Positions 450 to 57,950 are shown, counted from the first letter of the stretch. The stretch: DNA of 64,000 bases from Flavobacteriaceae bacterium UBA3611 (GCA_002375495.1 DFLU01000005.1:103503-167502), one strand, 5' to 3'. Numbers and translations are program-made. Notes: generated from the letters alone by a model not told the origin.

Positions 450-457
450 CACCCATT

Positions 458-556
458 AAGAGGAAAGATTTGACTGATTGCAACCTCTTCTGAATCGAAG
501 AAAATTCGAGGATGAGACTCCGAAACAAGATCGGGGTAAAAAATGCTAAAGGCAGT
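458..556 (+). ncRNA. SAM-II class riboswitch, long-loop type
   Basis: P1 AAGAGG(458-463)/CCTCTT(484-489) encloses GATTTGACTGATTGCAA (SAM-II GAUUU...UUGC core). The 3' pseudoknot strand TGCTAAAGGCAGT (544-556) pairs with GCA, TT and ACTG. Two hairpins lie in the long L3 loop; metK is directly downstream. Confidence 0.8.
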
Positions 557-617
557 GTAAACTACCTTCGACGCTCTCGTCAAATCTCCCGCACACTCAA
601 TAATTAAATGTATTTTC

Positions 618-1874: not shown

Positions 1875-1900
1875 AAACTAAGTAAAGTTGAATACACAAG

Positions 1901-1928
1901 ATGCCCGTTAATTCGGGCATTTTTTTTT
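1901..1928 (+). terminator. Intrinsic terminator between convergent metK and regulator gene
   Basis: ATGCCCG-TTAATT-CGGGCAT hairpin followed by a T run. Confidence 0.85.
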
Positions 1929-2577
1929 AAATAATGTTATGGTTTTTGGCTTTTTGCACGGCTTCAATTTTACTGTGCACCTGTAATTTTTTGTAGATGT
2001 TCTCGATGTGTTTCCGCACCGTGCTGGGCGATAAAAATAAATTTTCAGCAATAGCGGTATAACTCAGTCCAGTGCTAAGCTGTTCTAGGACCTCCACCTC
2101 CCGCTTCGACAACGAAATTTCTTCATGGTCTCTCGGATTTTGGATATCGATTGGATTACGCAACAGTTTGAGCGTTTTTAGTGCTATGGAAGGGTTCATG
2201 GCTGCGCCACCGTTAAGCGTGTCCTTAATACCCTCATACAAGTCTTTTGGATTGATCTCTTTCAGCAGATAGCCATCGGCACCCGCTTTTATGGCATTGA
2301 AAATATTTTCATCATTATCGAAAGCTGTGAGCATGATAATTTTTAATTGCGGGTATTTTTGCTTCACCACTTGGGTTGTTTCTATACCGTTTAAAACAGG
2401 CATTTCAATATCCATTAAAATGATATCCAAATGTTGGCTCTGTTCTAATTTGGTTAACAATTCACTGCCATTGGTTGCAGTGTGTTTCACCGTGATTTCA
2501 TCAAAAAAAGAAAGCTTCTCTTTAATGGCATGAATCAAGAAGGTATTGTCGTCTACAATGGCTACACGTATGCTCAT
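1927..2577 (-). CDS. NarL/LuxR-family response regulator
   Basis: REC domain (VDD, phosphoacceptor D56 in LMDIEMP, GADGYLLK) plus LuxR HTH (LSKREVEVL...SPSTVRKHIENIYKKL). Confidence 0.95.
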   Translation of the reverse strand: MSIRVAIVDDNTFLIHAIKEKLSFFDEITVKHTATNGSELLTKLEQSQHLDIILMDIEMPVLNGIETTQVVKQKYPQLKIIMLTAFDNDENIFNAIKAGADGYLLKEINPKDLYEGIKDTLNGGAAMNPSIALKTLKLLRNPIDIQNPRDHEEISLSKREVEVLEQLSTGLSYTAIAENLFLSPSTVRKHIENIYKKLQVHSKIEAVQKAKNHNII

Positions 2578-2628
2578 ATCTTGGTTAGTTTACAGACTTA
2601 AAGGTAGTTAAATCTAAGCACATGCCAC

Positions 2629-2644
2629 TAGGGCATATGCCCTA
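2629..2644 (-). promoter_or_regulatory. Putative response-regulator box A
   Basis: Perfect palindrome TAGGGCATATGCCCTA, 22 nt from minus-strand TACCTTTA (2599-2606), upstream of the regulator gene. Confidence 0.7.
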
Positions 2645-2681
2645 TTTCAACAAACAAATGCCTCATAGTTTGGTCACTCTA

Positions 2682-2933
2682 CTACTGTGGCACATCTATT
2701 TCAGGCTGGGGTTGTAGCGCTTCATTTATATTGTACTGTAAAAAATCGTACCGCTGTAAACTGTTGTGCCTTTTGGTAATCTGTGATTGGTGTATGGCTA
2801 AGCTTTGGGCCAAGTTTTCCATCCGCTCGCTGTGCTTCCCCTTTAATTTTCTGCTACGCAAAAGGCTTAGCAACCACCCCCCAATACAAAGGGCCAACGT
2901 ACAAGATAGTATGGTGATTTGAATAGCGTCCAT
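2682..2933 (-). CDS. Small protein with N-terminal TM helix
   Basis: 83 aa with hydrophobic ITILSCTLALCIGGWLLSLL; lies between kinase and regulator and has its own box upstream. Confidence 0.6.
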   Translation of the reverse strand: MDAIQITILSCTLALCIGGWLLSLLRSRKLKGKHSERMENLAQSLAIHQSQITKRHNSLQRYDFLQYNINEALQPQPEIDVPQ

Positions 2934-2980
2934 TTCACGGTTTATAGTTTAAAATTACGGGATGCTAATGGCAAAATCTA

Positions 2981-2996
2981 TACGGCAGTTGCCCTA
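2981..2996 (-). promoter_or_regulatory. Putative response-regulator box B
   Basis: TACGGCAGTTGCCCTA, 23 nt from minus-strand TAATTTTA (2950-2957); overlaps the kinase TAG stop. Confidence 0.65.
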
Positions 2997-4982
2997 ATTT
3001 TTAAAAGATATCGTGACGGTAGTGCCTTTGCCTTCTTCAGAAATAATATTGGCCTTACCTCCTATATCGCGGGTGCGTTTTCTAATGTTTGAAAGCCCAT
3101 TGCCAGCTTCAATGGTTTCTTTGTTAAAACCAATGCCGTTGTCTACAATATTTATCACAATCGTATAATCGTTTGCTAAGGTTTTCATGTCTACGGAAAT
3201 TTTAGTAGCCTTGGCATACTTTAGTGCATTATTCACTGCTTCTTGTATTATTCGGTACACGTTCATACCTTGAACTGATGTGAAGACTTGATTTTTGATA
3301 TCTTCATCGGTGGTAAAACTGAATTCGACACTGTTATCTACCTTACTGGCCTTTTCAATAAAGTTAGCGATACGCACTTGAAGGTCTTCTGCCGTGATAT
3401 TACTTTTATTCATCGCCCAAATGGTATCGCGTAGCTCATAAATTGTTTGGGTAGTAAATTCACTAATATTGCCCAATTTCCCAGTAATTGTATCATTGGT
3501 TCCGTCTAAAGCATATTTTAAATTGTCGATAGAAGAAGTTACAAAAGTTAGTTGCGAACCAATATTATCGTGCAGGTCTCTAGAGATCCTAAGGCGTTGT
3601 TCCTGAAGTTTGTTCTGTGTTTCAATACGGGCCAGCGCTGTCTGTAGCTCAGATTCTTTTTTTAACTGTCTGTTTTTCAGTTTTTGCTGATTGTACAACA
3701 AGTAACCTACTAAACCTAAGGCTACCGCCAATGAAAATCCGCCATAGATTAGTGTATTTTTACGCCGTACCTGAAGGTCTTTTTCAGCTAGCTGTGCGCG
3801 TTGGGCAAGAATTTCGTTTTCCTTTTTTTCGGTTTCATATTTGGTTTCCAGCTCTTCAATTGCCTTAGTTTTCGTTTCATCTAAGATCGAGTCGTTAATG
3901 GCGATATATTTCCGAAGGTATTCCACTTCAGCAATAGCATTTTTTCGGTCTTTGGCTAATTCTGCCAAGGAAGAATATGTCTCACGGGCAGAACGTTTTA
4001 TATTGTTATCCAGAGCATAGGTCAAGCCTCTTTTAAGGTAGGTTTCGGCCAATTGATAGCGCTTCTGCAATCGTAGATTTTCACCAAAGCTTGAAAACGA
4101 ATGGGCCAAACCGTTTTTATCGTTTATTTCTTCACGCACCGCGATAGATTGTTCAAAAAAATCATCGGCACGCTTAAAATCTTCTAGTTTTGTGTAAGCT
4201 AACGCAATATTTGCAAGATTAGACGCTTCTAATTTCCTGTCGCCTAATTCTTGGCTAATAGCCAAAGCTTTTTTATAGGTAGCAATAGCTTCGTCATATT
4301 TTTTTTGATAATCGAATATAGCGCCTACATTATTGTACCCTTGTTGAAGCCCGGTAATATTGCCCAGTTTTTTTTGTTCCTCTAAAGCTTTGAGCAAGTA
4401 CGTAGTGGCTTTGTCATAATCCTGCATATAATAGTACACCACGCCAATATTGTTGTATCCATCTGCAATGCCTTCTCTATTGTTTGAAGTTTCTTCGGCC
4501 CGAAGTGCTATAAATAATCTATCGAGTGCCTGTTGATAATCGCCCTTGCGAATATCTACCATTGCCAGATTGTTATAGACTATAGCTCTTCCTATTTCAG
4601 AGTTTTCATTTTCTACGATTTTTAAAGCGGTATTGTAGACAACTACCGCACTATCATACAAGGTCTTTCGCTCGTAATAGTTCCCCAAAGTGCTCAGGTT
4701 CATCCACTCTCCTTTTTTATACTTCAGTTCTTTTGACAATTCAAGGCCTTGCAGTACAAAAGACTTTGCACTATCGACCGCCGTAACATTGTAATGGGCA
4801 GCGATTTTATGAAGCAACACTACTTTATTGGTATCTGAAGGCATTCGGTTGAGCACCTGTAATGTACTGTCGATATTTTTAATGGTCTTTTGGGAAAAAC
4901 CCAGTTGCGAGCTTCCCACTAAAAAAAGAAGTATCACGAATTGACGAAGCAAGTTCGTGCGAAGCTTTTGAGGAAAATCCAT
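2994..4982 (-). CDS. TPR-repeat sensor histidine kinase (HisKA_3 type)
   Basis: Signal-like N-terminus, multiple TPRs (YNNLA, YNNIG, YNNVG), TM helix, H-box RDLHDNIG, N-box EAVNNALKYA, DNGIGF and GNGLSNI. Confidence 0.95.
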   Translation of the reverse strand: MDFPQKLRTNLLRQFVILLFLVGSSQLGFSQKTIKNIDSTLQVLNRMPSDTNKVVLLHKIAAHYNVTAVDSAKSFVLQGLELSKELKYKKGEWMNLSTLGNYYERKTLYDSAVVVYNTALKIVENENSEIGRAIVYNNLAMVDIRKGDYQQALDRLFIALRAEETSNNREGIADGYNNIGVVYYYMQDYDKATTYLLKALEEQKKLGNITGLQQGYNNVGAIFDYQKKYDEAIATYKKALAISQELGDRKLEASNLANIALAYTKLEDFKRADDFFEQSIAVREEINDKNGLAHSFSSFGENLRLQKRYQLAETYLKRGLTYALDNNIKRSARETYSSLAELAKDRKNAIAEVEYLRKYIAINDSILDETKTKAIEELETKYETEKKENEILAQRAQLAEKDLQVRRKNTLIYGGFSLAVALGLVGYLLYNQQKLKNRQLKKESELQTALARIETQNKLQEQRLRISRDLHDNIGSQLTFVTSSIDNLKYALDGTNDTITGKLGNISEFTTQTIYELRDTIWAMNKSNITAEDLQVRIANFIEKASKVDNSVEFSFTTDEDIKNQVFTSVQGMNVYRIIQEAVNNALKYAKATKISVDMKTLANDYTIVINIVDNGIGFNKETIEAGNGLSNIRKRTRDIGGKANIISEEGKGTTVTISFKN

Positions 4983-5016
4983 ACAGGTTTGGTTAGTTAA
5001 TGAAAATTTCCAAAAG

Positions 5017-6423
5017 TTACTCTAAACTTTTCACTAACGAACCATCTTTCCAAATCCCCACCTGTTTTTTATAATCTTTATCGTGGTAATATCCTTTTCC
5101 TTCATACATTCCATTCACCCATTCGCCGCCATAATAGCCACCTCCTTCAAAAAAGTACCTGCCAAAACCATGAAATTGATTTTCAGCATTAAACGTACCG
5201 CTGTATTTATCACCATTTGAAAAATTATAGGTACCAAGATGCATTTTTCCACCTTTAAAAAAGCCGATAAAGGTATCGCCGTTTGTCCATACAAACTTTC
5301 CATATTTATCATCGCAATCGCCAGCTGTACATCCTGATTCTACATTATTAGAGCTATAGGTATAGGGAGTAGTAAGCGTTCCCTTATTAAAGAGCCCTTG
5401 TTCCCACTTGTTTCCTGTTACGGTATATCCTACTCCGTTTAGCTCTCCGTTTTGATACATACCCGCAATATTATCTTCGTTATCAGCTATATAAATTCCG
5501 TAGCCATTCATTTGGTCATTTCTCCAATTGCCAATGTACTTCCCAACGCCATTCCATTTATATAGACCGTATCCATTTTTCTTTCCGTTTTCCCAGAAAC
5601 CATCATAGTAGCCATTTTCATATTGCAGCTTGCCCCAGCCGTTTTCACAATTACCACGAACACAACCTGAAGCAGTATCAGTGTCGACCGTAGAGGTTTC
5701 AGAACCTTTATAAATTTCTACGGGTTTATACACATAAGACGCAGTAGTATAATATGCTGGTAATACGTAACGAACAGCACCATTTTCTTTTACCAACATA
5801 TCGTCACCACTTTGTTCTGTTGTTAGGTTGGTATAGTCTATAGATTTTCCATCTTTAATAATATGGTAGGTATTTTTATCTGCAACACGTGTCCAGTACG
5901 TATTTGAGGCCGAAAAAGGCAACTTTGTTGTGGTCTTTGCACCCCAATCGGCGAAGTTTCGGATTCCGTCCAGGTAGTACGTACTATTCGATCCATCATC
6001 ATAATATACATAGCTTCCGTTAACGTTGGTGAATTTTCCAGTGCTCACGTACTGATCGTTTACGTAATTCGCAAACGAGTTTGGATTGGTGATATAGAAA
6101 TTTGTTCCAATATTTTCAGCAAGAATTGTAGCAGTGCCCGAGCTCCCAATTTCAATATCTTTAAAGTCTTGAAGTAAATAAACAACTCTGTTCGAACGAT
6201 CTAAAACGCTGAGTGTATTTGTTTTCAAAAATTTAAGATCCATGGTATTGGTTAACAAGGTTCCTGACGCGGTCCGGATCTCATAATCCATTTCATTGGT
6301 TTTCTTAAAGGTAGCAACAGAAACTAATGTGTTGGTTTTGGATATGTTAGTAGCCTTGGCCTGTGATATTTTACAGGTGGGTAGCCAAATTAGCAATGAT
6401 AGAAATACAATTAAAAATCTCAT
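5017..6423 (-). CDS. Secreted MORN-repeat protein with extra N-terminal domain
   Basis: Start moved to MRFLIVFL (signal peptide). C-terminal YxGxWxNG-type MORN repeats in two blocks, each opened by CxxGxC. Confidence 0.85.
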   Translation of the reverse strand: MRFLIVFLSLLIWLPTCKISQAKATNISKTNTLVSVATFKKTNEMDYEIRTASGTLLTNTMDLKFLKTNTLSVLDRSNRVVYLLQDFKDIEIGSSGTATILAENIGTNFYITNPNSFANYVNDQYVSTGKFTNVNGSYVYYDDGSNSTYYLDGIRNFADWGAKTTTKLPFSASNTYWTRVADKNTYHIIKDGKSIDYTNLTTEQSGDDMLVKENGAVRYVLPAYYTTASYVYKPVEIYKGSETSTVDTDTASGCVRGNCENGWGKLQYENGYYDGFWENGKKNGYGLYKWNGVGKYIGNWRNDQMNGYGIYIADNEDNIAGMYQNGELNGVGYTVTGNKWEQGLFNKGTLTTPYTYSSNNVESGCTAGDCDDKYGKFVWTNGDTFIGFFKGGKMHLGTYNFSNGDKYSGTFNAENQFHGFGRYFFEGGGYYGGEWVNGMYEGKGYYHDKDYKKQVGIWKDGSLVKSLE

Positions 6424-6458
6424 GGTATGTGTTTTTGTGTTGAAGTGTTTTGTGTCGA

Positions 6459-7274
6459 TTATTTTACGAAGGTTCCATTGTTCCAAGTGCCGTGTTGTAC
6501 GTCACCATTTTTGAAATAGTAGATGCCTTTTCCGTGTCTTTTTCCGTTGCTCCATCCGCCGATATAGTAGTCGCCCGAGCTCCAAAGATAGCTTCCTTGC
6601 CCATGCCTACTCCCGTTCTCAAATTGTCCGTGGTACACACCACCGTCTGGATAGTAATATGAACCAAAATCTACGCGTTTACCATCTCTAAAAAACCCAT
6701 TGTACTTATCGCCGTTGTCCCATTTGTATAGGCCAAATCCGGTATTACAATTACCTGTGCAGTTTCCATTTTTAATGTTATTGATAAAATCAAGACCCTC
6801 GTTGATTGTTAACGTTGAGTTCACATAGTGTCCGGCTTGTTTTAGCTTGTTATCACCCGCCAGAAGATATCCCGGGCCTTCACGTTTATTTTGCTTCCAC
6901 ATACCTCTGTACAATTCTTTGGTGTCATTCCATCCGTAATTACCAAATCCCTCCAACTTTCCTTTGTTGTAAAAACCCAAATAATAGCCATTGGCATATG
7001 TTTCGTAGCCTGGGCCGTGTGGTAGCCCATTTTCAAAAAAGCCTTCATAATATCCTGTTCCAAACTTTTGCTTTCCGTAGCCATTTGTACAATCGCCACT
7101 TACACATTTATCTGCCGGTTTGGTTTCTGAAGACGACTTTTTTGGAGTTGGTGGCTGGGGCACATCAACCGTTGTTGGTTTGGTTTTCGGTGTTCCAGGG
7201 GGTTTAGGTGGTGAAATTTGTGCAAAAAGTACACTCCCTGCAAAGAATAATGCAATTTGGACGATGGTTTTCAT
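6459..7274 (-). CDS. Secreted MORN-repeat protein
   Basis: Signal peptide, Pro/Lys linker, two CxxGxC/CxGxC-led MORN blocks (CVSGDCTNGYG, CTGNCNTGFG). Confidence 0.85.
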   Translation of the reverse strand: MKTIVQIALFFAGSVLFAQISPPKPPGTPKTKPTTVDVPQPPTPKKSSSETKPADKCVSGDCTNGYGKQKFGTGYYEGFFENGLPHGPGYETYANGYYLGFYNKGKLEGFGNYGWNDTKELYRGMWKQNKREGPGYLLAGDNKLKQAGHYVNSTLTINEGLDFINNIKNGNCTGNCNTGFGLYKWDNGDKYNGFFRDGKRVDFGSYYYPDGGVYHGQFENGSRHGQGSYLWSSGDYYIGGWSNGKRHGKGIYYFKNGDVQHGTWNNGTFVK

Positions 7275-7332
7275 AATGGTCTCATTTCTAAATTAATACT
7301 ATAAATTTCTAAAAAAGTGACCAATTACACCA

Positions 7333-7348
7333 TACGGCAGTTGCCTTA
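7333..7348 (-). promoter_or_regulatory. Putative response-regulator box C
   Basis: TACGGCAGTTGCCTTA, 23 nt from minus-strand GAAATTTA (7302-7309), upstream of the MORN genes. Confidence 0.6.
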
Positions 7349-7413
7349 TTTTCTAAAATTGCCAAAAAATATATGAATTCTGAGAGTAGCACCCCTAAAA
7401 TTTTCCGTCTACG

Positions 7414-7665
7414 TTACCGTAAAAGCATCATGATGAGCATGGTAAAACTTACCACTAGGGCAATACCAAAAAGTACATAGTTAGTTTTACTAAACCTATT
7501 ATTAGGTAGTAATTTTTGGGCGCTTCTAGTAAGCCAAAGACCAAGAAGAAGTGCTGGAAGCGCCGTCACTAGGTTGATGTAGTAGACCCACATCCAGCCA
7601 GTGGCCAAACAGCATATTGCACAAATGAATCCGAGAATATTAAAAATTAATGGTTTTTGTTTCAT
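7414..7665 (-). CDS. Small membrane protein
   Basis: 83 aa, three hydrophobic segments, 8 nt downstream of the preceding same-strand gene. Confidence 0.65.
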   Translation of the reverse strand: MKQKPLIFNILGFICAICCLATGWMWVYYINLVTALPALLLGLWLTRSAQKLLPNNRFSKTNYVLFGIALVVSFTMLIMMLLR

Positions 7666-7673
7666 TTTACTAT

Positions 7674-8408
7674 CTATTCAGAAAGACGTTCTAGTTGTTG
7701 TTGTACTTCGGAAGGGTTTTGGTCTGGTTTTGCTATTTTTTCTGAAAGTTCCTTTGCAAATCCGCTGTGTTTGCGAATGGCTACCATACAAAGATCTACC
7801 CCCAAACGGAATAACAGCAATAAGGCTGCAGCCACTATTCCTGCGTCTAAGAATACCATAAAGAAACCGGCTAATATCACTACGAATTGCTGAATGAAGA
7901 TGCGCACGTACGGACTGAAGAATATTTCTGAAGGCGCGTATTCTTTGTACTTTTCAAATTGCCAAAAATTGGAATAGAAATAACCCAAATTGCTTACTAA
8001 TAATGACCCGATGATGAGTAACATTCCGTCCATTTGAAGCAGCACCGAAAAGTTATGAAAAAGTGCAAAACCGTGTGAAAGCCCTGGGATTGAATTTTCA
8101 AAAAAGAAGAATACAAATATCATCTGTATGCCTACAAACATTCCGTAATGGAACAAAAAGAAAACAATAGAACCATAGCCCTGCATACTATTATGGTCTT
8201 TCTTATCTTCTTTCCCGTGTTTAATTACCAAAAAAAGCTTTACAGCATGAAGCAGCCCAATGATGATGGTTTCAAAAAAGTATCCAAAAACAATACTTTC
8301 GGGAGCGGCAAGGCCCAAAACCAATAATATACACAAGAATAATGTTTGGGCGTATATAAGCACATTTGCTTGGTGTAATTGAAAGATATTTTTCAGTAGT
8401 GATGTCAT
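7674..8408 (-). CDS. Integral membrane protein (DUF6498-like)
   Basis: Multi-TM protein with YFFETIIIG, FFLFHYGMF and PYVRIFIQQF motifs. Start moved to MTSLLK because the ORF-track start lies inside a terminator hairpin. Confidence 0.7.
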   Translation of the reverse strand: MTSLLKNIFQLHQANVLIYAQTLFLCILLVLGLAAPESIVFGYFFETIIIGLLHAVKLFLVIKHGKEDKKDHNSMQGYGSIVFFLFHYGMFVGIQMIFVFFFFENSIPGLSHGFALFHNFSVLLQMDGMLLIIGSLLVSNLGYFYSNFWQFEKYKEYAPSEIFFSPYVRIFIQQFVVILAGFFMVFLDAGIVAAALLLLFRLGVDLCMVAIRKHSGFAKELSEKIAKPDQNPSEVQQQLERLSE

Positions 8409-8415
8409 AAATTCG

Positions 8416-8450
8416 ATAAAAAATGGAAACCCCATGTCATTGGGGTTTCC
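8416..8450 (-). terminator. Intrinsic terminator of the beta-propeller gene
   Basis: GGAAACCCCA-TGTCAT-TGGGGTTTCC 10-bp stem with ATTTTTTAT downstream on the minus strand. Confidence 0.75.
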
Positions 8451-8503
8451 GAAGAAAATAAGTCTCCTCTTACTTATTTCCGAAATATAACCTGGTTAGT
8501 TGG

Positions 8504-10363
8504 TTATTTTTTAAGGTCGTAGGCATAGATCGTATTATTATCAGCTTTATAGTACAAAATACCTCCGCGATCGTCTACCTGGTATTCTGGTTTTTTATCT
8601 TTAAGTAGAATTTCCTTTTCCATGGCACCCGAGTCTTTATTAATTTTCACTAGCCCTACTCCATCGTCTAATTTGGTTAGTATAAATTGTGCATTTGCAG
8701 TAGCAGCGGTAGCTTTAAATCGTTTCAGCATTTCAGCCACAGAAGCCCCACTGGCAGCTGCCAGACCTCCTGCAAGATCTGCATCACGATCTGCTTGCGC
8801 ATCGTATTTTGCAATGCGGTTTCGTATCGACGAATTGGCTGCAGCTACAGATCCCGCGGCAGATGCCACAGCTGTTACTCCAGCTATAATGGCGCCTAAA
8901 GCACTTTTCCCGGGAGCTCTGTAATACTCGTGCCATGTTTTGCCACCTTCCCAGTCTAACATCATTAAGTTTTGGTCGCTAGTCAAAAGAATTCCACCAT
9001 TTCTAACGTCTACACCTGTTGGCGCTTCTTTTCCTTCAAATTTATTGTTAGACAGTTCAGATACATCGCCACTCGCAGCGTCTACGGCAAATAACTTTTC
9101 GTCTGCGCTAATCAGATATCGGTTATTTTTGTTGTCAAAAGTTGAAGAAACGGCGTCGGCTCTTTTATACTTTAAGGGTTTCTTCCAAATTTGTTCTCCA
9201 GAATCCAAGTTTACTATGTTGGCATCTTCAGAAGTGATGTAGATAAGCCCTTGGTCTGTTTCGGCCATTGTTAAAATGTTCTCCCCTGTTTTTAATGGCT
9301 TTTTAAACAATGTTTTTCCGTCGTAAGAAACTTTATTAATTCCGCCGTCATAAATTCCGAAGAGAATACCATCATCCATAATATAGAAATGCTGCACATA
9401 ACCTTTCGTCTTGGGAGCCTTGTCCCACATATCTTCACCATTGCTAGCGCCTAACATAGCGATTTTAGATTCTGACCGCCCTGCAAACACACTTTTTCCT
9501 TCATTGTAGGTATTGCTCACTACGGCAAGGCCCTGTGGTAAGATTTCGAAATTGGTCACAACTCCTTTTACTTTTGCTTCGTCTTTCCAAAGTTCGGCAC
9601 CGTTGTTCGAACCAATTTTATAAATTTTTGTATTGCTCTTATTATCGTTGGTTATAAACGCATAGATATCAGATTCAGCTTCGTTAGCGACCATCCATTG
9701 TACATTTTTCAACTTATTGTCCCATTGTGTATCACCGCTATGGGTTTTTGAAAGCACACCTTGCGAAGTAGGAACCAACACTCTATCTTTTAACAACAAG
9801 GGTCTACCTGTCACAGCAAAATTTCGCATGGTCACCTTTCCAGGATCTACAAGGTTAAATCTAAAATCTTCAGCCCCTGTATTGAGATCGTACATAGCTA
9901 CTTGCGATGCAAATTTTTCTTTGGAAGTACGTTGTCCTGCTACTATCAATTTATTCTGAGGCATATACACTTCTACGATAGTGGCCATTTTCCAGCCGTT
10001 GTCTTCGGTGCTGAATAGTTTTTTTCCAGAAATATAATCGATTACAGCTTTTTTTGAAGATATGCCAGCGAAACCACCCTGGGCCACTACAACATACGGC
10101 GCAAATGGGATGTAGGACAACTCTTCTGGTTTCACCCTTCCGTAATCTGTAAAGTTGAACAAAAGCTCATTACTTCCCGGCTTTATACCCACGAGTCCGT
10201 CATTGGTAGCTACCACCATGGTTCCACCTTGGGTAAGGGTCATTTCATTAATTTTCGCTCCCGTGTCGTATCTAAAATCGGGTGTTTCGGCCCTTTGGGC
10301 CACAGCGGTCGCAGTTAACACAAAAGCACACAGCGCTGTTTTTATTAAAGTTGAAGTTTTCAT
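8504..10363 (-). CDS. Secreted PQQ-like beta-propeller repeat protein
   Basis: Signal peptide (MKTSTLIK...AVA-Q); repeated blade motifs (DLNTG..F, NNGAELW, SNGEDMW, LDSGEQIW). Confidence 0.8.
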   Translation of the reverse strand: MKTSTLIKTALCAFVLTATAVAQRAETPDFRYDTGAKINEMTLTQGGTMVVATNDGLVGIKPGSNELLFNFTDYGRVKPEELSYIPFAPYVVVAQGGFAGISSKKAVIDYISGKKLFSTEDNGWKMATIVEVYMPQNKLIVAGQRTSKEKFASQVAMYDLNTGAEDFRFNLVDPGKVTMRNFAVTGRPLLLKDRVLVPTSQGVLSKTHSGDTQWDNKLKNVQWMVANEAESDIYAFITNDNKSNTKIYKIGSNNGAELWKDEAKVKGVVTNFEILPQGLAVVSNTYNEGKSVFAGRSESKIAMLGASNGEDMWDKAPKTKGYVQHFYIMDDGILFGIYDGGINKVSYDGKTLFKKPLKTGENILTMAETDQGLIYITSEDANIVNLDSGEQIWKKPLKYKRADAVSSTFDNKNNRYLISADEKLFAVDAASGDVSELSNNKFEGKEAPTGVDVRNGGILLTSDQNLMMLDWEGGKTWHEYYRAPGKSALGAIIAGVTAVASAAGSVAAANSSIRNRIAKYDAQADRDADLAGGLAAASGASVAEMLKRFKATAATANAQFILTKLDDGVGLVKINKDSGAMEKEILLKDKKPEYQVDDRGGILYYKADNNTIYAYDLKK

Positions 10364-10408
10364 AATCGTGGTTTTAGTAATTTGATATTTCAAAGGTGCA
10401 ACTTGAAA

Positions 10409-10437
10409 TAGGGCAATTCAATAGGGCAATTGACGTA
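10409..10437 (-). promoter_or_regulatory. Putative response-regulator box D plus extra half site
   Basis: TAGGGCAATTGACGTA (10422-10437), 23 nt from minus-strand CACCTTTG (10391-10398); second TAGGGCAAT half site at 10409-10417. Confidence 0.7.
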
Positions 10438-10454
10438 TTTGTGGGAAATTGTTG

Positions 10455-10606
10455 GTTAGATGCTGGGCGTTAGATGCTGGAAGTTGGAAGTTGAGTGTTG
10501 GAAGCTGGAAGTTGGAAGTTGGAAGTTGGAAGTTGGTCTTAGGTCTTTGGTCTTTAGTCTTTAGTCTTTAGTCTTTAGTCTTTAGTCTTTAGTCTTTAGT
10601 CTTTAG
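10455..10606. repeat. Heptamer tandem arrays (GGAAGTT)n and (TCTTTAG)8
   Basis: About 8 GGAAGTT-type units at 10479-10534, two degenerate units, then 8 perfect TCTTTAG units at 10551-10606. Confidence 0.95.
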
Positions 10607-10640
10607 AATATGATAAATTACTGCTTACTGCATATCGAAC

Positions 10641-10676
10641 AAAAAACCGGAAGAAGAACTATTGTTCCGCTCCCGG
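10641..10676 (-). terminator. Probable intrinsic terminator of the lipoprotein gene
   Basis: Imperfect stem CCGG..GAAC-TATT-GTTC..CCGG with A6 on its left (U6 on the minus strand). Confidence 0.5.
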
Positions 10677-10722
10677 CTCCACGTAAAAACCTCAACACTT
10701 GAGATTTTCTTAGATGTGATAA

Positions 10723-11238
10723 TTAGTTGTTGGTTACCTCCAGATTAAATTCACCTGCTGTGACTGCCACAGTATCTGACATATCATTTGCATTGTACCC
10801 AGTAAAATTGAACGTACCTACAATGGTGTTTCCGTCAAAACTTGAAACCCGCAATTCGCCTTCAGATTGCGTCCCGTTAACTGTTGTGTAAATTACAACT
10901 GTTGATGGATCTGGGTTTGAAGGATCTGGAAGGTAGCTATACGTTCCAATATTCAGAAAATTTAATTCATAAGTACCCGCGCCATCAAAATTCTGAATAA
11001 TCATCTGTAAATTCTCAGATTGAGAAGTACCACCAGAGATTGCCAAAACATCACCTTGTGCACTCATAGTTATTTGGGCCTGTACAGCTATATCTGCTGT
11101 TAGACCAGCACCATCTATACTTGCTGTAAGTGTCCCAGTACCAGCTGCAGGATCTTCCCCGCCATCATCATCTTTTTTACAAGCAGTAACAGCTAAACCC
11201 ACCAAAAGGATAAGGCAAAATTGTTTAATACGTTTCAT
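10723..11238 (-). CDS. Lipoprotein (DUF6252-like)
   Basis: Start MKRIKQF; lipobox VTAC followed by acidic KKDDDGG; beta-rich body ending GTFNFTG...GEFN. Confidence 0.8.
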   Translation of the reverse strand: MKRIKQFCLILLVGLAVTACKKDDDGGEDPAAGTGTLTASIDGAGLTADIAVQAQITMSAQGDVLAISGGTSQSENLQMIIQNFDGAGTYELNFLNIGTYSYLPDPSNPDPSTVVIYTTVNGTQSEGELRVSSFDGNTIVGTFNFTGYNANDMSDTVAVTAGEFNLEVTNN

Positions 11239-11296
11239 AATTAAGGTTTTTTTTAGTTTATGGTACAAAGATGCACGCAATGGTATGGGTAATCAA

Positions 11297-11312
11297 TAGG
11301 GCAATTGACGTA
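11297..11312 (-). promoter_or_regulatory. Putative response-regulator box E
   Basis: TAGGGCAATTGACGTA, identical to box D, 23 nt from minus-strand CATCTTTG (11266-11273). Confidence 0.7.
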
Positions 11313-11480
11313 TTTGGAGTAGTTAGATGTGTGAAGCTGGAAGTTGGAGGTTGGGAGTTGATGGTGGTCAGTTGTCGGTTCTGAGTTATCTGTGTCCATA
11401 CTCCATCGGACTATTGCGTCTAGGTTGGATACTCTTTAGTCCATATTCCATTCTCTATATTCTTACGTTAGAAGTTTGAA

Positions 11481-11658
11481 GCTGCTCTCCGACAGATGCT
11501 GCTCTCCGACAGATGCTGCACTTCGACAGCACTTCGACAAGCTCAGTGTAACAGCTCAGTGTGACAGCTCAGTGTAACAGCTCAGTGTGACAGGTGTTGG
11601 GTGTTGGGTATTGCACTTCGACTGCGCTCAGTGTGACAGATGTTGGGTGTTGGGTGCT
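11481..11658. repeat. Compound REP-like repeat cluster
   Basis: 17-mer x2, GCACTTCGACA x2, GCTCAGTGTRACA x4, GGTGTTG-type heptamers and a monomer GCACTTCGACTGCGCTCAGTGTGACA (11613-11638). Confidence 0.9.
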
Positions 11659-11672
11659 AAAAGGAATGACTT

Positions 11673-12638
11673 TTAAAAAGAAATAGCATAGGGTAATTGT
11701 TGCTTTATCTTCTCTATTTTCTGCTGAAGGTCTTGCTGAAATTTTAGATGGGACACACTATCTGGCTGAAATGGCCGATGCTGCAATCCTTTTTGAATGA
11801 CATCAATATCTTTTTGAAGTGTTTCTGTTTCCGAAGACACCCAAACATGCTTGAATTTCTCCCAAATATATTGAACGGCCGTAGTACTGGGATGTACCAT
11901 ATCATCATTGTAAAACCGATAATCCCGTAGTTCGTCCATCATCAATTCGAAGGAAGGGAAATAGAAAAGACCTCTCGACTGCGCTCGAGGAGACACAATC
12001 AATCTCTCATGAATGGCGGCAATTAAATGTGCTTTACTCTGTGTGTTTTCAACAAAACAGTCCTTTGTATGCCGCACGGGAGACACCGTAAAGATTAACT
12101 GTACCTTCTGATTTATCTTGTTAATGAGCGCCACAGTTCGTTCTACGCTTGCTGAAATATCTGCGACTGAAAGGATTTCCTTTGAAAATGATTTCTGCGG
12201 AATTTTGTGGCAGTTTGCTACAATTGAATCTGAAGCAATATGCCTGTAGACCCAAGCCGTTCCGAAGGTTAAAATAATGTGCGACGCCTCTGAAAGAGAG
12301 GTTGAAAATTTATTCAATCGATTGTTCAATAAATGCAACAACGCTTCTTTCGAAGTAGCTGTAACCGAAGAGTGTGCCTCAAAACTGAACCATTGTCCGT
12401 CACGTTCAAATATGTCCTTTTCAGTAAAATCGGTGCGATTGACAGCCCGGGAGATCAAATTTTCTATCGCCAACGGGTGAAACACAATCCCAAACGGATT
12501 CTGGAGATTCTGAAACTTAAAATAGTCTAATTTCCCTCCTATATTCTCTGTAAAACAGGAACCCAACAGCAAAATTTTAGAGGAATATTCTATCTGGTCT
12601 TCCTGTGGTGAGAGTGGTAAGGTGGTTTGTAGCTTCAT
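11673..12638 (-). CDS. GSCFA domain protein (SGNH-like)
   Basis: LLGSCF, NPFGIVFHP, TVSPVRH, FPSFE and RDYRFY..DMVHP motifs. Confidence 0.9.
   Translation of the reverse strand: MKLQTTLPLSPQEDQIEYSSKILLLGSCFTENIGGKLDYFKFQNLQNPFGIVFHPLAIENLISRAVNRTDFTEKDIFERDGQWFSFEAHSSVTATSKEALLHLLNNRLNKFSTSLSEASHIILTFGTAWVYRHIASDSIVANCHKIPQKSFSKEILSVADISASVERTVALINKINQKVQLIFTVSPVRHTKDCFVENTQSKAHLIAAIHERLIVSPRAQSRGLFYFPSFELMMDELRDYRFYNDDMVHPSTTAVQYIWEKFKHVWVSSETETLQKDIDVIQKGLQHRPFQPDSVSHLKFQQDLQQKIEKIKQQLPYAISF
11968..11995. repeat. REP-like element in frame within the GSCFA gene
   Basis: AGACCTCTCGACTGCGCTCGAGGAGACA shares TCGACTGCGCTC with the intergenic monomer and encodes VSPRAQSRGL. Confidence 0.75.
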
Positions 12639-17622: not shown

Positions 17623-18060
17623 ATGTCTAAAGTAGAAGATTTTTTGACTGCCGACGAAGAAATGGCTATTGTAGAAGCCATTCGAACTGCCGAAAAGAAC
17701 ACCTCTGGAGAGATTCGGGTACACTTAGAAGCCCATAGCAAGACAGATGCGTTTGACCGTGCTGCTGATGTATTCGATTTTTTACACATGAACAACACCA
17801 AGCTGAACAATGGCGTACTCATTTACATTGCTGTAGAAGACCGCACTTTAGTCATCATGGGTGATAAAGGAATTAACGATGTGGTACCCCCGCACTTTTG
17901 GGAAAGCACCAAAGATGCGATTATCGAAAAATTCAAAAAAGGTGATATGAAACAAGGGCTCGTAGATGGTATTCTGAAAGCCGGTGAGCAATTGAAAAAA
18001 CATTTTCCGCGAAAAAACAATGACACCAATGAATTACCAGATGATATTTCGGTTGGGTAG
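17623..18060 (+). CDS. TPM domain protein
   Basis: AEKNTSGEIRV, NGVLIY, GDKGIN and NELPD motifs; follows lemA. Confidence 0.9.
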   Translation: MSKVEDFLTADEEMAIVEAIRTAEKNTSGEIRVHLEAHSKTDAFDRAADVFDFLHMNNTKLNNGVLIYIAVEDRTLVIMGDKGINDVVPPHFWESTKDAIIEKFKKGDMKQGLVDGILKAGEQLKKHFPRKNNDTNELPDDISVG

Positions 18061-18095
18061 TTGTTAGTTGTTAGTTGTTAGTTGTTAGTTGTTAG
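18058..18095. repeat. (TAGTTGT)5 heptamer array
   Basis: Five perfect copies plus TAG, starting at the TAG stop of the upstream TPM gene. Confidence 0.95.
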
Positions 18096-18995: not shown

Positions 18996-19111
18996 TCTCA
19001 ACTCATAACTCATAACTCATAACTCTCAACTCATAACTTGTCACACTGAGCTGTTACACTGAGCTGTTACACTGAGCCTGTCGAAGTGCTGTCGATGTGC
19101 TGTCGATGTGC
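18996..19111. repeat. Compound REP-like repeat cluster, inverted relative to 11518-11592
   Basis: TCWYAAC heptamers x6, TGTYACACTGAGC x3, TGTCGAWGTGC x3. Confidence 0.9.
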
Positions 19112-56279: not shown

Positions 56280-57950
56280 ATGGAAAAATCAAACTTTTCA
56301 TTCCTCTTTTTTTTGAAGGTAGTATTCATGCTGAGCAGTTTACTATCATCATCATCATATTGTTTCGCGCAACAAACAGTGGATAGCACTGCCTATTTCT
56401 ACAACAAGATTTTAAACCCTGATTCTGCAGACGATCTAGTCGTTAGTTACGTGTACTTCAAAAAATATAAAGAAGAGAAAGGTATAGACCAAGACACTCT
56501 TGGACTTGTTTTCACATACCAAATGTTAGCAATGGCGGAATATAAATTGGGCCAAATCTACGCTAGTGAACAATCAGCCATTGAGGCTCTTAAATTGAAA
56601 GAGATTGCTTCAGATGTATTACAGTTTCCCGACGGGACCGAAAGTCGCATCAATAATCATTTAGGCATGGTCTACAGAACTACCGCCCAACCTGAAAAAG
56701 CTATACAAATCTATTCTAAAGCCTTATCGAAAAACAAAAGCTTAAAGGATAGCCTTATACTCTTAAACAACTTAGCGAATGCCCATCGGGATAGCGGAAA
56801 CTATGATGAGGCAGTTGACTTATTGACGTCAGTTGTTAGAAGAAATAAAAAATTGAACAATCCGGTTGAAACAGCCAGGGCGTTGGATAATTTGGGATAT
56901 ACACAAGCATTGGCTAATGACCCGAAAGGACTAGAAAACATGTTGGAAGCACTAGAACTTCGGAAAGAATTAGGCAATCCTGGCCAACTTTTTACAAGTT
57001 ATAATCATCTTACCGAATACTACGCATCCATAGGCGATACCACCACTGCTAGAATGTATGCCGTTTTGGGAAAGAATCTCGCGAAAAAGGTGAGCACAAA
57101 ATATCGTCAAGAGGCCCTTGAGTCTTACTTTGCGTTAAGTGATGATCCCGAAATTGTGGAATACATTCGTAATAACGACAGTATCACAAAAGCGTCCCTT
57201 CAAAATGATATCAAATTCGCGAGTATCAAATATGACTTTTCAAAAGAACAAGAACGAACCCAGGTTGCGCAACTAGAACGTCAGAAAGAAAGTCAAAGGA
57301 AAAATCTCTTTAAGGTCATTGGGCTATTTATATTATTGCTGGGTATAGCGTTATATTTCGTATTGAAGTATCGCCATCGAAAGGAGAAAGTTGAAGAAAT
57401 CTATCGAACCGAATCCCGAATTTCTAAAAAAGTACATGATGAAGTAGCTAATGATCTTTATCAAATTATGAGCAAAATACAGACCTCTATCCAATCAAAT
57501 GATACAATACTCGATGATTTAGATTCGGTATACCACAAAACCCGGGATATTTCAAAAGATTATGGACTAATTGAACCGGAAGAAGAATTCGGCGAACTCT
57601 TAAACGACCTGCTCCTAAACTATCAAAACGACCAAGTGAATGTGATCTCCAAAAACTTGCTTCGTATCGATTGGAATGGCTTGGCAACCGAAAAAAAGAT
57701 TGCCCTCTATCGAGTGTTACAGGAGTTAATGACCAATATGCGCAAGCATAGCGAAGCCTCATTAGTAGTGGTTTCAGCAGAAAAGCTGGGAAGTAAATAT
57801 GTTGTTGAATATACCGATAACGGTACGGGTGGCCCTATAAAAATAGGCAACGGACTCCGAAATGCGGAAAACCGTATTCACTCGGTAAAGGGAACGATTA
57901 TATTTGAACCAACCGAAAGAAATGGCTTCAAGGCAAAAATAAAGTTGTAG
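56280..57950 (+). CDS. TPR-repeat sensor histidine kinase (HisKA_3 type)
   Basis: Signal-like N-terminus, TPRs (NNHLG, LNNLA, LDNLG), TM helix, KKVHDEVAN H-box, ELMTNMRKHS, DNGTG, GNGLRN. Confidence 0.93.
   Translation: MEKSNFSFLFFLKVVFMLSSLLSSSSYCFAQQTVDSTAYFYNKILNPDSADDLVVSYVYFKKYKEEKGIDQDTLGLVFTYQMLAMAEYKLGQIYASEQSAIEALKLKEIASDVLQFPDGTESRINNHLGMVYRTTAQPEKAIQIYSKALSKNKSLKDSLILLNNLANAHRDSGNYDEAVDLLTSVVRRNKKLNNPVETARALDNLGYTQALANDPKGLENMLEALELRKELGNPGQLFTSYNHLTEYYASIGDTTTARMYAVLGKNLAKKVSTKYRQEALESYFALSDDPEIVEYIRNNDSITKASLQNDIKFASIKYDFSKEQERTQVAQLERQKESQRKNLFKVIGLFILLLGIALYFVLKYRHRKEKVEEIYRTESRISKKVHDEVANDLYQIMSKIQTSIQSNDTILDDLDSVYHKTRDISKDYGLIEPEEEFGELLNDLLLNYQNDQVNVISKNLLRIDWNGLATEKKIALYRVLQELMTNMRKHSEASLVVVSAEKLGSKYVVEYTDNGTGGPIKIGNGLRNAENRIHSVKGTIIFEPTERNGFKAKIKL

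What the first reader, a model, noticed from the sequence alone, without database searches (positions are those of the whole stretch)
2599..11316. Five-promoter regulon of a TPR kinase/NarL-type pair, readable from sequence
Seen: a 16-bp palindrome (consensus TASGGCA-N2-TGMCSTA, one copy ending CCTTA) occurs at 2629, 2981, 7333, 10422 and 11297. Each copy is 22-23 nt from an nAnnTTTR element on the minus strand. Targets are the regulator itself, an 83-aa TM protein, the MORN pair, the beta-propeller gene and a lipoprotein. Several -7 elements deviate from TAnnTTTG (CACCTTTG, CATCTTTG, GAAATTTA), as expected for activator-dependent promoters. Known: NarL/LuxR regulators bind inverted half sites near -35 to -40. 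Inference: an autoregulated envelope/secreted-protein regulon sensed through periplasmic TPRs.
Basis: partly seen in the sequence, partly recalled or inferred. Interest (0 to 1): 0.72.

Follow-up and report, generated by a model that had tools for sequence, protein, structure and literature searches.

The report
Conserved two-component regulon in marine Flavobacteria
A 16-base palindrome sits at a fixed distance upstream of five genes around a sensor-kinase/regulator pair, and the same arrangement recurs across dozens of Flavobacteriaceae genera, so it is very probably the regulator's binding site switching on a small local set of exported proteins of unknown function.

Summary
Five 7-2-7 palindromes lie at 2629, 2981, 7333, 10422 and 11297. 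Each is followed on the minus strand, after 22-23 nt, by an nAnnTTTR box and then an ATG. Nothing similar occurs in the other 53 kb. A matrix built only from other genomes scores the five sites at 21-35 bits; the next best site scores 12.4.

Comparative genomics supports the interpretation. In 79 Flavobacteriaceae genome loci the gene order is conserved: GSCFA, [PAL] DUF6252 lipoprotein, [PAL] beta-propeller, ([PAL] MORN), [PAL] small membrane protein, TPR kinase, [PAL] regulator. The gap from palindrome to -7 box is exactly 23 nt in 128 of 135 sites. Sites are about 260-fold denser inside the cluster than in its flanks. Half-site bases co-vary with two residues at the start of the regulator's recognition helix.

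The best reading is a NarL-type response regulator that activates one-off-consensus Bacteroidetes promoters from a site abutting the -33 element. It also autoregulates. Its input is probably a periplasmic TPR domain, as in P. gingivalis FimS.

DNA binding, transcription starts, the signal and the function of the effectors remain untested. I found no prior description. This is a new member of a known kind and of moderate interest.

The parts
1927..2577 (-). NarL/LuxR-type response regulator (216 aa; receiver domain plus GerE helix-turn-helix)
   Evidence: Pfam Response_reg 1.3e-25 and GerE 4e-19. Best NCBIfam model is NarL, 132 bits against a cut-off of 250. Nearest solved structures are VraR/LiaR and NarL. 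Orthologues are 61-92% identical in 76 loci.
2599..2606 (-). -7-like box TACCTTTA of the regulator promoter
   Evidence: Lies 22 nt after the palindrome and 22 nt before ATG 2577. Regulator promoters in other genomes are TAnnTTTA in 17 of 19.
2629..2644 (-). Palindrome 1 (TAGGGCATATGCCCTA), autoregulatory site upstream of the regulator gene
   Evidence: 21.4 bits. Equivalent sites lie upstream of the RR orthologue in other loci; 19 have the -7 geometry.
2682..2933 (-). 83-aa bitopic membrane protein (TM83a): N-terminal TM helix, then basic residues and a conserved cytoplasmic helix
   Evidence: TM at residues 3-26 followed by RSRKLKGK. No Pfam, NCBIfam or PADLOC hit. The family sits next to the kinase in many genera and has a conserved motif QIxxRxxxLxxYxFxxYNLxEAL.
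2950..2957 (-). -7-like box TAATTTTA of the TM83a promoter
   Evidence: Lies 23 nt after palindrome 2 and 17 nt before ATG 2933. TM83a promoters are TAnnTTTA in 16 of 18.
2981..2996 (-). Palindrome 2, overlapping the kinase stop codon and upstream of TM83a
   Evidence: 23.6 bits.
2994..4982 (-). Sensor histidine kinase: signal-like N-terminus, TPR domain (about residues 60-390), TM helix 410-430, HisKA_3, HATPase_c
   Evidence: Pfam TPR_12 3.6e-36, HisKA_3 1.2e-09, HATPase_c 2.7e-14. Hydropathy. Best NCBIfam model is P. gingivalis FimS, 98.6 bits against a cut-off of 600.
5017..6423 (-). Exported MORN-repeat protein (468 aa)
   Evidence: Pfam MORN 1.8e-07. N-terminal hydrophobic signal. Orthologues carry a palindrome in 8-12 loci.
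6459..7274 (-). Exported MORN-repeat protein (271 aa), first gene of the probable MORN-MORN-kinase operon
   Evidence: Pfam MORN 2e-21. Signal peptide. No terminator between 7274 and 2994 on the minus strand.
7302..7309 (-). -7-like box GAAATTTA of the MORN operon promoter
   Evidence: Lies 23 nt after palindrome 3 and 28 nt before ATG 7274.
7333..7348 (-). Palindrome 3 (TAAGGCAACTGCCGTA on the minus strand)
   Evidence: 29.0 bits.
8504..10363 (-). Exported beta-propeller protein (619 aa, PQQ_2/BamB-like); monocistronic
   Evidence: Pfam PQQ_2 1e-17. Signal peptide. Intrinsic terminator at 8450-8425 directly after its stop. Orthologues carry the palindrome in 20 loci and in 19 metagenome hits. 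Transcribed in a marine metatranscriptome.
10391..10398 (-). -7-like box CACCTTTG of the propeller promoter
   Evidence: Lies 23 nt after palindrome 4 and 28 nt before ATG 10363. Propeller promoters are CAnnTTTG in 16 of 20.
10419..10437 (-). Palindrome 4 (10422-10437) with the abutting TTG (10421-10419), read as the -33 element
   Evidence: 35.2 bits. TTG directly follows the palindrome in 20 of 20 propeller promoters.
10723..11238 (-). DUF6252 lipoprotein (171 aa; lipobox VTAC), the most frequent target
   Evidence: Pfam DUF6252 1.2e-09. NCBIfam Riean_0653 family, 57.7 bits against a cut-off of 57. It is the target in 43 genome sites and 31 metagenome sites. AlphaFold model is all-beta with pLDDT 85 and has no strong structural match. 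A metatranscriptome contig covers 10978-11236.
11266..11273 (-). -7-like box CATCTTTG of the lipoprotein promoter
   Evidence: Lies 23 nt after palindrome 5 and 28 nt before ATG 11238. DUF6252 promoters are CAnnTTTG in 38 of 43.
11294..11312 (-). Palindrome 5 (11297-11312) with the abutting TTG (11296-11294)
   Evidence: 35.2 bits. TTG follows the palindrome in 41 of 43 DUF6252 promoters.

Best explanation
The locus is a self-contained, autoregulated two-component gene cluster that is conserved across Flavobacteriaceae and reaches Weeksellaceae.

Input (inferred). The kinase has a signal-like N-terminus, a TPR domain, one TM helix, and HisKA_3 plus HATPase_c domains. It most likely senses a periplasmic ligand through the TPR domain and phosphorylates the NarL-type regulator.

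Binding (inferred). A dimer of the phosphorylated regulator binds the 7-2-7 inverted repeat. The family consensus is A-TACG(G/T)CA-NN-TGCC(C/G/T)TA-T, and the invariant core is TACG-N8-CGTA.

Position (shown). The proximal edge of the repeat abuts the -33 TTG, and the repeat lies exactly 23 nt upstream of the -7 box. Its centre is therefore about -43 +/- 2. This figure assumes the usual position of the -7 box relative to the start of transcription.

Activation (inferred). From that position the regulator recruits or stabilises RNA polymerase at promoters that are each one base short of the Bacteroidetes TAnnTTTG consensus. Effector promoters (DUF6252 lipoprotein, beta-propeller, most MORN genes) read PAL-TTG-N20-CAnnTTTG. 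Regulatory-gene promoters (the regulator, the small membrane protein) read PAL-N23-TAnnTTTA.

Output in this window: five transcription units.
- The lipoprotein.
- The propeller.
- MORN-MORN-kinase.
- The 83-aa membrane protein, possibly reading on into the regulator gene.
- The regulator.

Positive feedback therefore acts on both signalling proteins. The 83-aa bitopic protein is probably an accessory or feedback modulator of the kinase.

Shown here: motif, geometry, conservation, locality, domain content, co-variation.
Not shown: DNA binding, direction of regulation, transcription starts, the signal, effector function.
For: - Motif and spacing are real and non-random.
- The palindrome recurs 2-6 times per locus in most of the 79 Flavobacteriaceae loci anchored on the kinase. 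It stands in front of the same gene families in the same order.
- The gap to the -7 box is 23 nt in 128 of 135 sites, 22 nt in 6 and 24 nt in 1.
- Information content is near zero outside the palindrome, the abutting TTG and the -7 box.
- In 59 loci there are 110 sites inside the GSCFA-to-RR interval (379 kb) against 1 site in 873 kb of flanks.
- A metagenome scan not anchored on the kinase searched for palindrome plus box. Of the 111 sites with an ORF downstream, 70 stand before homologues of the window's own cluster proteins. Most of the rest stand before proteins with signal peptides or a single TM.
- The regulator is the only DNA-binding protein in the cluster. It is a receiver+GerE protein closest to NarL, VraR and LiaR. 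NarL output domains bind 7-2-7 sites as dimers and activate from -40..-49 (napF) and -38..-47 (yeaR) (PMC4549865).
- Regulators with PS at the start of the recognition helix have CA at half-site positions 6-7 in 239 of 246 half-sites. Those with xG have it in 27 of 90.
- The class-specific one-off -7 boxes are conserved across genera.
- The Bacteroidetes -7 TAnnTTTG and -33 TTTG consensus is taken from PMC7366714.
- A TPR kinase with a periplasmic TPR sensor exists in the same phylum: FimS (PMC11053733).
Against: - There is no experimental binding, footprint or expression data for this system. I found no paper on it.
- RNA data are limited to a few metatranscriptome contigs. They show that two target genes are transcribed but give no 5' ends.
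- Activation rather than repression is inferred only from position, rigid spacing and sub-consensus promoters.
- The co-variation statistic is inflated, because the xG regulators probably form one or a few clades.
- In the more distant clade the inner half-site is degenerate and partly asymmetric, so the binding mode there may differ.
- The N-terminal hydrophobic stretch of the kinase is short, so the topology is a prediction.
Confidence: 0.8

Rival explanations
1. The palindrome is the regulator's operator, but the regulator represses. It occludes the -33 region, and phosphorylation or its loss relieves repression.
For: The site abuts or overlaps the -33 TTG. NarL represses from some 7-2-7 sites, for example frdA (PMC4549865).
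Against: - The known NarL repression site lies at the transcription start (-4/+6), not at about -43.
- A repressor would not need a spacing fixed to the base pair (128 of 135 sites at 23 nt).
- Every promoter is one base off consensus in a class-specific way, which is typical of activator-dependent promoters.
- The regulator and kinase-module genes carry the same architecture, which is the usual pattern of positive autoregulation.
Confidence: 0.1
2. The palindrome is bound by a different transcription factor encoded elsewhere, and its association with the two-component system is only positional.
For: No binding data exist. Palindromes beginning TA and ending TA could fit other helix-turn-helix families.
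Against: - Sites are confined to the cluster that encodes the regulator.
- They include sites in front of the regulator gene itself in most genomes.
- The 7-2-7 geometry is the NarL-family signature.
- Half-site bases co-vary with the regulator's recognition-helix residues.
Confidence: 0.05
3. The palindromes are structural or mobile repeats (REP-like elements, RNA hairpins or terminators, recombination sites) and not operators.
For: Sites 4 and 5 share a 23-nt identical stretch and lie next to tandem-repeat-rich DNA. Palindrome 2 sits at the 3' end of the kinase gene.
Against: - A 7-bp stem with a 2-nt loop cannot form a stable hairpin, and no T-run follows.
- The sites lie upstream of genes at a fixed distance from a promoter box.
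- Conservation is limited to the motif itself across genera whose flanking sequence has diverged.
- The sites are not dispersed through the genome.
Confidence: 0.02

Closest known systems
E. coli NarL/NarP with 7-2-7 heptamer sites (napF and yeaR activation)
   Same: - Receiver+GerE regulator paired with a HisKA_3 kinase.
- Binding site made of two inverted heptamers separated by 2 bp, beginning TAC and ending GTA. The engineered NarL site is TACCCCT-AA-AGGGGTA; the consensus here is TACGGCA-NN-TGCCGTA.
- Activating sites centred near -43/-44 (PMC4549865).
   Different: - Not an orthologue: the NarL model scores 132 bits against a cut-off of 250.
- The inner heptamer bases differ.
- The sensor is a TPR domain, not the NarX/NarQ periplasmic four-helix bundle (family knowledge, not tested here).
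- The promoters are of the Bacteroidetes -33/-7 type.
- The regulon is a small local cluster of exported proteins, not respiratory genes.
Porphyromonas gingivalis FimS/FimR
   Same: - Same phylum.
- The kinase has TM, a periplasmic multi-TPR sensor, TM and a kinase domain, with an unknown signal (PMC11053733).
- FimS is the best-scoring NCBIfam model for the kinase here.
- The system positively controls a local cluster of exported or surface proteins.
   Different: - The score is far below the family cut-off (98.6 against 600), so the resemblance is in architecture, not orthology.
- Its targets are fimbrial genes, and none is present here.
- The papers I read describe no defined palindromic FimR operator or fixed promoter geometry.
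Firmicutes LiaFSR/VraSR cell-envelope stress modules
   Same: - The regulator's closest solved structures are VraR/LiaR.
- HisKA_3 kinase with weak similarity to LiaS (71.8 bits).
- A small membrane protein is encoded with the kinase.
- Strong positive autoregulation and a very small, mostly local regulon. This last point on LiaFSR/VraSR is established knowledge and was not tested here.
   Different: - LiaS/VraS are intramembrane-sensing kinases without a large extracytoplasmic domain, whereas this kinase has about 350 residues of TPR.
- TM83a matches no family model, LiaF included, in the scans run.
- The effectors differ.

Membership tests
NarL/FixJ (LuxR-type) response regulators | N-terminal receiver domain with the phospho-acceptor aspartate, plus a C-terminal GerE-type helix-turn-helix | tested here: met
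   Pfam Response_reg 1.3e-25 and GerE 4e-19. The full-length alignment to VraR keeps the DD pair (res 9-10), the aspartate in LMD (res 54-56), the threonine in MLT (res 82-84) and the lysine in LLK (res 104-106).
NarL orthologue (NCBIfam NF007935) | Score at or above the curated equivalog cut-off of 250 bits | tested here: not met
   132 bits. The protein is a family member, not NarL itself.
NarL-type 7-2-7 operator | Two inverted heptamers separated by 2 bp and bound by a dimer of the output domain | tested here: inconclusive
   The sequence arrangement is met at all five sites and at 135 sites in relatives. Binding by the regulator cannot be tested with these tools; it is supported indirectly by co-variation.
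HisKA_3-type (NarX/LiaS/DesK class) histidine kinases | HisKA_3 dimerisation/phospho-acceptor domain followed by HATPase_c | tested here: met
   HisKA_3 1.2e-09 at residues 463-525 and HATPase_c 2.7e-14 at residues 575-661.
FimS (NCBIfam NF053520, Porphyromonas) | Score at or above the equivalog cut-off of 600 bits | tested here: not met
   98.6 bits over residues 66-626. The domain architecture is the same, but it is not an orthologue.
FimS-like architecture | TPR sensor domain located in the periplasm between an N-terminal membrane or signal segment and a TM helix | tested here: inconclusive
   A basic N-terminus with a 9-residue hydrophobic core is followed by the TPRs and one clear TM at 410-430. 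This is a topology prediction only.
Bacteroidetes primary-sigma promoter | -7 box TAnnTTTG and -33 TTTG/TTG, with the start of transcription a few nt downstream | tested here: inconclusive
   Boxes one base off consensus stand at a fixed place before each ATG. TTG abuts the palindrome at 2 of the 5 window sites and at 61 of 63 DUF6252/propeller promoters. Transcription starts are not mapped. The consensus is from PMC7366714.
LiaFSR/VraSR module | LiaS/VraS orthologue plus a LiaF-family membrane inhibitor | tested here: not met
   The LiaS model scores 71.8 bits against a cut-off of 450. TM83a matches no family in Pfam, NCBIfam or PADLOC.
Known anti-phage defence systems (PADLOC) | Specific hits of the cluster proteins to defence-system models | tested here: not met
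   Only generic HTH and TPR domain matches were found.

The most novel reading that the evidence does not exclude
The cluster may be a phylum-specific envelope-surveillance circuit. The periplasmic TPR domain of the kinase would monitor the very exported beta-repeat proteins and lipoprotein that the regulator induces (MORN, propeller, DUF6252), or their trafficking. The co-induced 83-aa membrane protein would set the feedback. That would make it a closed sensor/effector loop serving Flavobacteriia in place of the Cpx/Rcs-type envelope stress systems, which are not described for this class (my own knowledge, not tested here).

The evidence is compatible with this reading but does not require it. 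The regulon is local. Its targets are almost entirely exported. It includes a conserved small membrane partner. TPR domains typically bind peptides or proteins (PMC11053733).
Probability: 0.12. Interest if true: 0.75.

Novelty: new member of a known kind. Interest (0 to 1): 0.5.

Why it matters
TPR-HisKA_3 kinases paired with LuxR-type regulators are common in Flavobacteriia; one scan found 559 relatives. I could find no published operator or regulon for any of them.

This locus gives a complete cis-regulatory code that can be read from sequence:
- the operator consensus;
- base-pair-exact spacing to the -7 box;
- two promoter classes;
- a set of conserved targets.

The code holds from Rasiella-like marine bacteria to Flavobacterium and Moheibacter. 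That makes several questions directly testable in culturable relatives. How does an activator work at the unusual -33/-7 promoters of Bacteroidetes? What do periplasmic TPR sensors detect? What do the conserved DUF6252, propeller and MORN exported proteins do?

It is not a new mechanism. It is a well-resolved new instance of NarL-type class-II-like activation.

Tried and rejected
- RNA evidence. Public runs holding this sequence are metagenomes. Four metatranscriptome runs gave only a few short contigs (9700-9868, 9987-10206, 10978-11236 and a few others), with no 5' ends. Transcription starts therefore could not be checked.
- Literature. Five full-text searches found nothing on this system. 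One hit (PMC10197871) matched 'morning', not MORN. Riean_0653, a distant relative of the lipoprotein, affects the haemolysis phenotype in Riemerella but is not itself a haemolysin (PMC7881567). That gives no mechanistic clue.
- Effector function by structure. The DUF6252 model is confident (pLDDT 85), but its only fold match is weak: M. tuberculosis LpqH, TM 0.37/0.49, E 2.6e-3. The propeller and the lipoprotein have no sequence relatives among solved structures.
- Defence system. PADLOC gave only generic domain hits.
- Secreted signalling pro-peptide. I considered whether the 83-aa protein is a pro-peptide sensed by the TPR domain, as in RRNPP or Agr systems. This is disfavoured. The family has an acidic or neutral N-terminus, a TM helix, then a basic cluster and a conserved roughly 55-residue C-terminal helix. 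That predicts N-out/C-in topology, so the conserved part is cytoplasmic.
- Generic sigma-70 promoter scan. It found no enrichment (29 found against 26 expected), as expected for a Bacteroidetes genome.
- Two further window sites (52148, 61201) match only the relaxed outer pattern plus geometry. They are not palindromic and are taken as chance. The site at 56807 scores 12 bits and has no -7 box at the right distance.

Full report
**Observation**

- 2629-2644 TAGGGCATATGCCCTA
- 2981-2996 TACGGCAGTTGCCCTA
- 7333-7348 TACGGCAGTTGCCTTA
- 10422-10437 and 11297-11312, both TAGGGCAATTGACGTA

None of 100 shuffles reaches 11. Ten of the 11 matches are these five sites read on both strands.

Read on the minus strand, each palindrome is followed by an nAnnTTTR box. 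The gap is 22 nt at site 2629 and 23 nt at the other four. An ATG follows 17-28 nt after the box.

The boxes are TACCTTTA, TAATTTTA, GAAATTTA, CACCTTTG and CATCTTTG. None is the full Bacteroidetes consensus TAnnTTTG (consensus from PMC7366714).

**Genes**

All genes lie on the minus strand.

| Coordinates | Product |
|---|---|
| 11238-10723 | DUF6252 lipoprotein |
| 10363-8504 | Exported PQQ_2-type beta-propeller, ending in a strong intrinsic terminator at 8450-8425 |
| about 8408-7674 | DUF6498 membrane protein; no palindrome |
| 7665-7414 | 83-aa polytopic protein (TM83b); no palindrome |
| 7274-6459 and 6423-5017 | Two exported MORN proteins |
| 4982-2994 | Kinase: signal-like N-terminus, TPR domain, TM 410-430, HisKA_3, HATPase_c |
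| 2933-2682 | 83-aa bitopic protein (TM83a) |
| 2577-1927 | Receiver+GerE regulator |

The kinase has no palindrome of its own. It follows the MORN genes after 34 nt with no terminator, so the 7333 promoter probably drives MORN-MORN-kinase.

**Is it more than chance?**

I built a weight matrix from 124 sites in other genomes, leaving the window's own sites out. It scores the five window sites at 21-35 bits. The next best position in the 64 kb scores 12.4 bits. Sites above 15 bits are expected 0.07 times per window.

A very relaxed pattern (TA[ACG]G-N8-C[CGT]TA plus the box at 22-23 nt) finds seven sites against 0.22 expected. Five are the real sites. The other two are not palindromic.

**Comparative evidence**

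A scan of one genome per species with the kinase returned 79 loci from Flavobacteriaceae. Genera include Ulvibacter, Altibacter, Gilvibacter, Aequorivita, Psychroserpens, Winogradskyella, Leeuwenhoekiella, Flavobacterium and Polaribacter, plus Moheibacter. The best match is 70% identical, so the window's own genome is not among them.

The palindrome recurs two to six times in most of these loci. The gene order is conserved: GSCFA, [PAL] DUF6252, [PAL] propeller, (DUF6498), ([PAL] MORN genes), (second TPR kinase), [PAL] TM83a, kinase, [PAL] regulator.

Of 135 sites with a downstream nAnnTTTR box, the gap is exactly 23 nt in 128, 22 nt in 6 and 24 nt in 1.

The aligned promoters carry information only in three places:
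- An 18-bp palindrome, A-TACG(G/T)CA-(A)T-TGCC(C/G/T)TA-T. The flanking A is present in 124 of 128 and the flanking T in 128 of 128.
- The next two bases, T in 100 of 128 and G in 85 of 128.
- The -7 box.

The G at position +19 has no symmetric partner; C occurs at the mirror position in only 4 of 128. The TTG is therefore a promoter feature, the -33 element, directly abutting the operator.

The targets of these 135 sites are DUF6252 (43), propeller (20), regulator (19), TM83a (18), MORN (9) and others (26).

**Locality**

In the 59 loci that contain both GSCFA and the regulator, there are 110 sites within the 379 kb between those genes. There is one site in the 873 kb of flanks, about a 260-fold difference in density. 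The window behaves the same way: five sites in 9 kb and none in the remaining 53 kb.

**An independent, unanchored test**

I scanned metagenome contigs for the strict palindrome, 23 N and ANNTTTR.

Of the 111 sites with an ORF downstream, 70 precede homologues of the window's own cluster proteins: DUF6252 31, propeller 19, regulator 7, TM83a 6, kinase 3, MORN 4.

The other 41 are almost all proteins with an N-terminal signal peptide or a single TM helix. They include:
- divergent TM83a-like small proteins;
- SBBP and sortilin/BNR propellers carrying T9SS C-terminal sorting domains;
- a papain-family peptidase;
- TPR proteins;
- several families with no Pfam match.

The output is therefore a variable set of exported proteins around a conserved core.

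**Who binds?**

The only DNA-binding protein in the cluster is the regulator. It is a canonical receiver+GerE protein. Its best family model is NarL, below the orthologue cut-off. Its nearest solved structures are VraR/LiaR and NarL.

NarL output domains bind inverted heptamers separated by 2 bp (7-2-7 sites) as dimers. One example is TACCCCT-AA-AGGGGTA. NarL activates from 7-2-7 sites at -40 to -49 (napF) and -38 to -47 (yeaR) (PMC4549865).

The element here has the same 7-2-7 layout and the same outer TAC...GTA. With the -7 box in its usual place, its centre falls at about -43 +/- 2.

The regulator is far more conserved than the kinase (61-92% against 35-70% identity). Its recognition helix, T(V/I)RKHIENIY, is almost invariant.

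The two residues before that helix co-vary with the DNA. Regulators with PS have CA at half-site positions 6-7 in 239 of 246 half-sites. Regulators with xG have it in 27 of 90, and their sites keep only TACG-N8-CGTA, for example TACGTAATTCATCGTA. The clades are not independent, so the nominal P value overstates the case. The direction is nevertheless what protein-DNA co-evolution predicts.

**Activator or repressor?**

Three observations favour activation.
- The spacing is fixed to the base pair.
- The operator abuts rather than covers the core elements.
- Every promoter is one step from consensus, in a class-specific way that is conserved across genera. DUF6252 and propeller promoters read PAL-TTG-N20-CAnnTTTG: 61 of 63 have the TTG and 54 of 63 have CA..G. 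Regulator and TM83a promoters read PAL-N23-TAnnTTTA in 33 of 37, usually without the TTG.

Repression from this position remains possible. I give it about 10%.

**Input**

The kinase's best-scoring family model is P. gingivalis FimS. The score is far below the cut-off, so the resemblance is one of architecture. FimS has eight TPRs in a periplasmic domain between two TM segments, and its signal is unknown (PMC11053733).

The kinase here has a basic N-terminus with a short hydrophobic core, then TPRs, and a single clear TM helix before the kinase core. A periplasmic TPR sensor is therefore the likely topology, but this is a prediction.

Many relatives carry two tandem TPR kinases and one regulator, which suggests several inputs into one output.

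TM83a is a conserved partner. It has an N-terminal TM helix, a basic cluster and a conserved cytoplasmic helix, QIxxRxxxLxxYxFxxYNLxEAL. Its topology argues against a secreted pro-peptide. It is more likely a feedback modulator of the kinase, by analogy with small membrane regulators of other kinases. That is inference.

**Effector function is unresolved**

- The DUF6252 lipoprotein just passes the NCBIfam Riean_0653 family threshold. A distant Riemerella member affects haemolysis without being a haemolysin (PMC7881567).
- Its AlphaFold model is a confident all-beta fold. Only a weak match to M. tuberculosis LpqH was found.
- The propeller and the lipoprotein have no sequence relatives among solved structures.
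- PADLOC finds no defence system.
- Two target genes are transcribed in a marine metatranscriptome.

**Comparison and novelty**

The system works like NarL at class-II-type 7-2-7 sites. It has a FimS-like sensor architecture. It has the compact, autoregulated, accessory-protein-containing layout of LiaFSR/VraSR. It fails the orthologue thresholds for NarL, FimS and LiaS, so it is none of these.

Five literature searches found no description of the operator or the regulon. I file it as a new member of a known kind.

Its value lies in the resolution and breadth of the cis-regulatory code for a poorly studied phylum, not in a new principle. Interest is 0.5. Confidence in the main explanation is about 0.8.

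Noticed in passing
window 454-559 (+): A SAM-II (long-loop) riboswitch lies upstream of metK (618-1874). It scores 48.3 bits against a gathering score of 44.
   Followed up: no
window 10478-10606, 11333-11360, 11481-11656; also 18058-18095 and 19000-19111: The intergenic DNA upstream of palindromes 4 and 5 is full of tandem repeats. These include TGGAAGT x8.4, GTCTTTA x9.1, a 17-mer x2.9 and AGCTCAGTGTAAC x4.2. Related units, including the reverse complement TGTTACACTGAGC x3, recur at 19039-19111. Period-7 arrays of unrelated sequence occupy the same place upstream of the propeller palindrome in L015 (CTAACAA), L020 (TACCGTC) and L064 (TACCGAC). I have no explanation.
   Followed up: partly
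window 10407-10431: A 13-nt direct repeat, AATAGGGCAATTC x1.9, gives the propeller promoter a third half-site (TGCCCTA) 13 nt promoter-proximal of palindrome 4. It is not conserved in other genomes; the logo is flat there.
   Followed up: partly
window 8425-8450 (-) and 7414-8435: A strong intrinsic terminator follows the propeller gene: GGAAACCCCAATGACATGGGGTTTCC plus a T-run. The mechanical DUF6498 ORF start at 8435 lies inside the hairpin, so the real start is probably ATG 8408. DUF6498 and the 83-aa polytopic protein at 7414-7665 have no palindrome, although DUF6498 is syntenic in many relatives.
   Followed up: partly
loci L003-L006, L008-L012, L014, L019-L023, L025, L036, L037, L039, L046, L055, L056, L058, L061, L064, L065, L070, L076, L079 (kinase regions): Many relatives carry two tandem TPR-HisKA_3 kinases, and L079 carries three, with a single regulator. 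The window has only one kinase.
   Followed up: no
window 5008-5015 (-): A palindrome-less nAnnTTTG box (AACTTTTG) lies inside the last codons of the MORN gene, including its stop codon, about 25 nt before the kinase ATG (4982). It could give the kinase a basal, regulator-independent promoter.
   Followed up: no
window 1898-1923: A bidirectional hairpin terminator is shared by the convergent metK and regulator genes.
   Followed up: no
window 11673-12638 (-) and all related loci: A GSCFA-family gene is the invariant upstream neighbour of the cluster in nearly every genome, yet it has no palindrome. The reason for this tight synteny is unknown.
   Followed up: no
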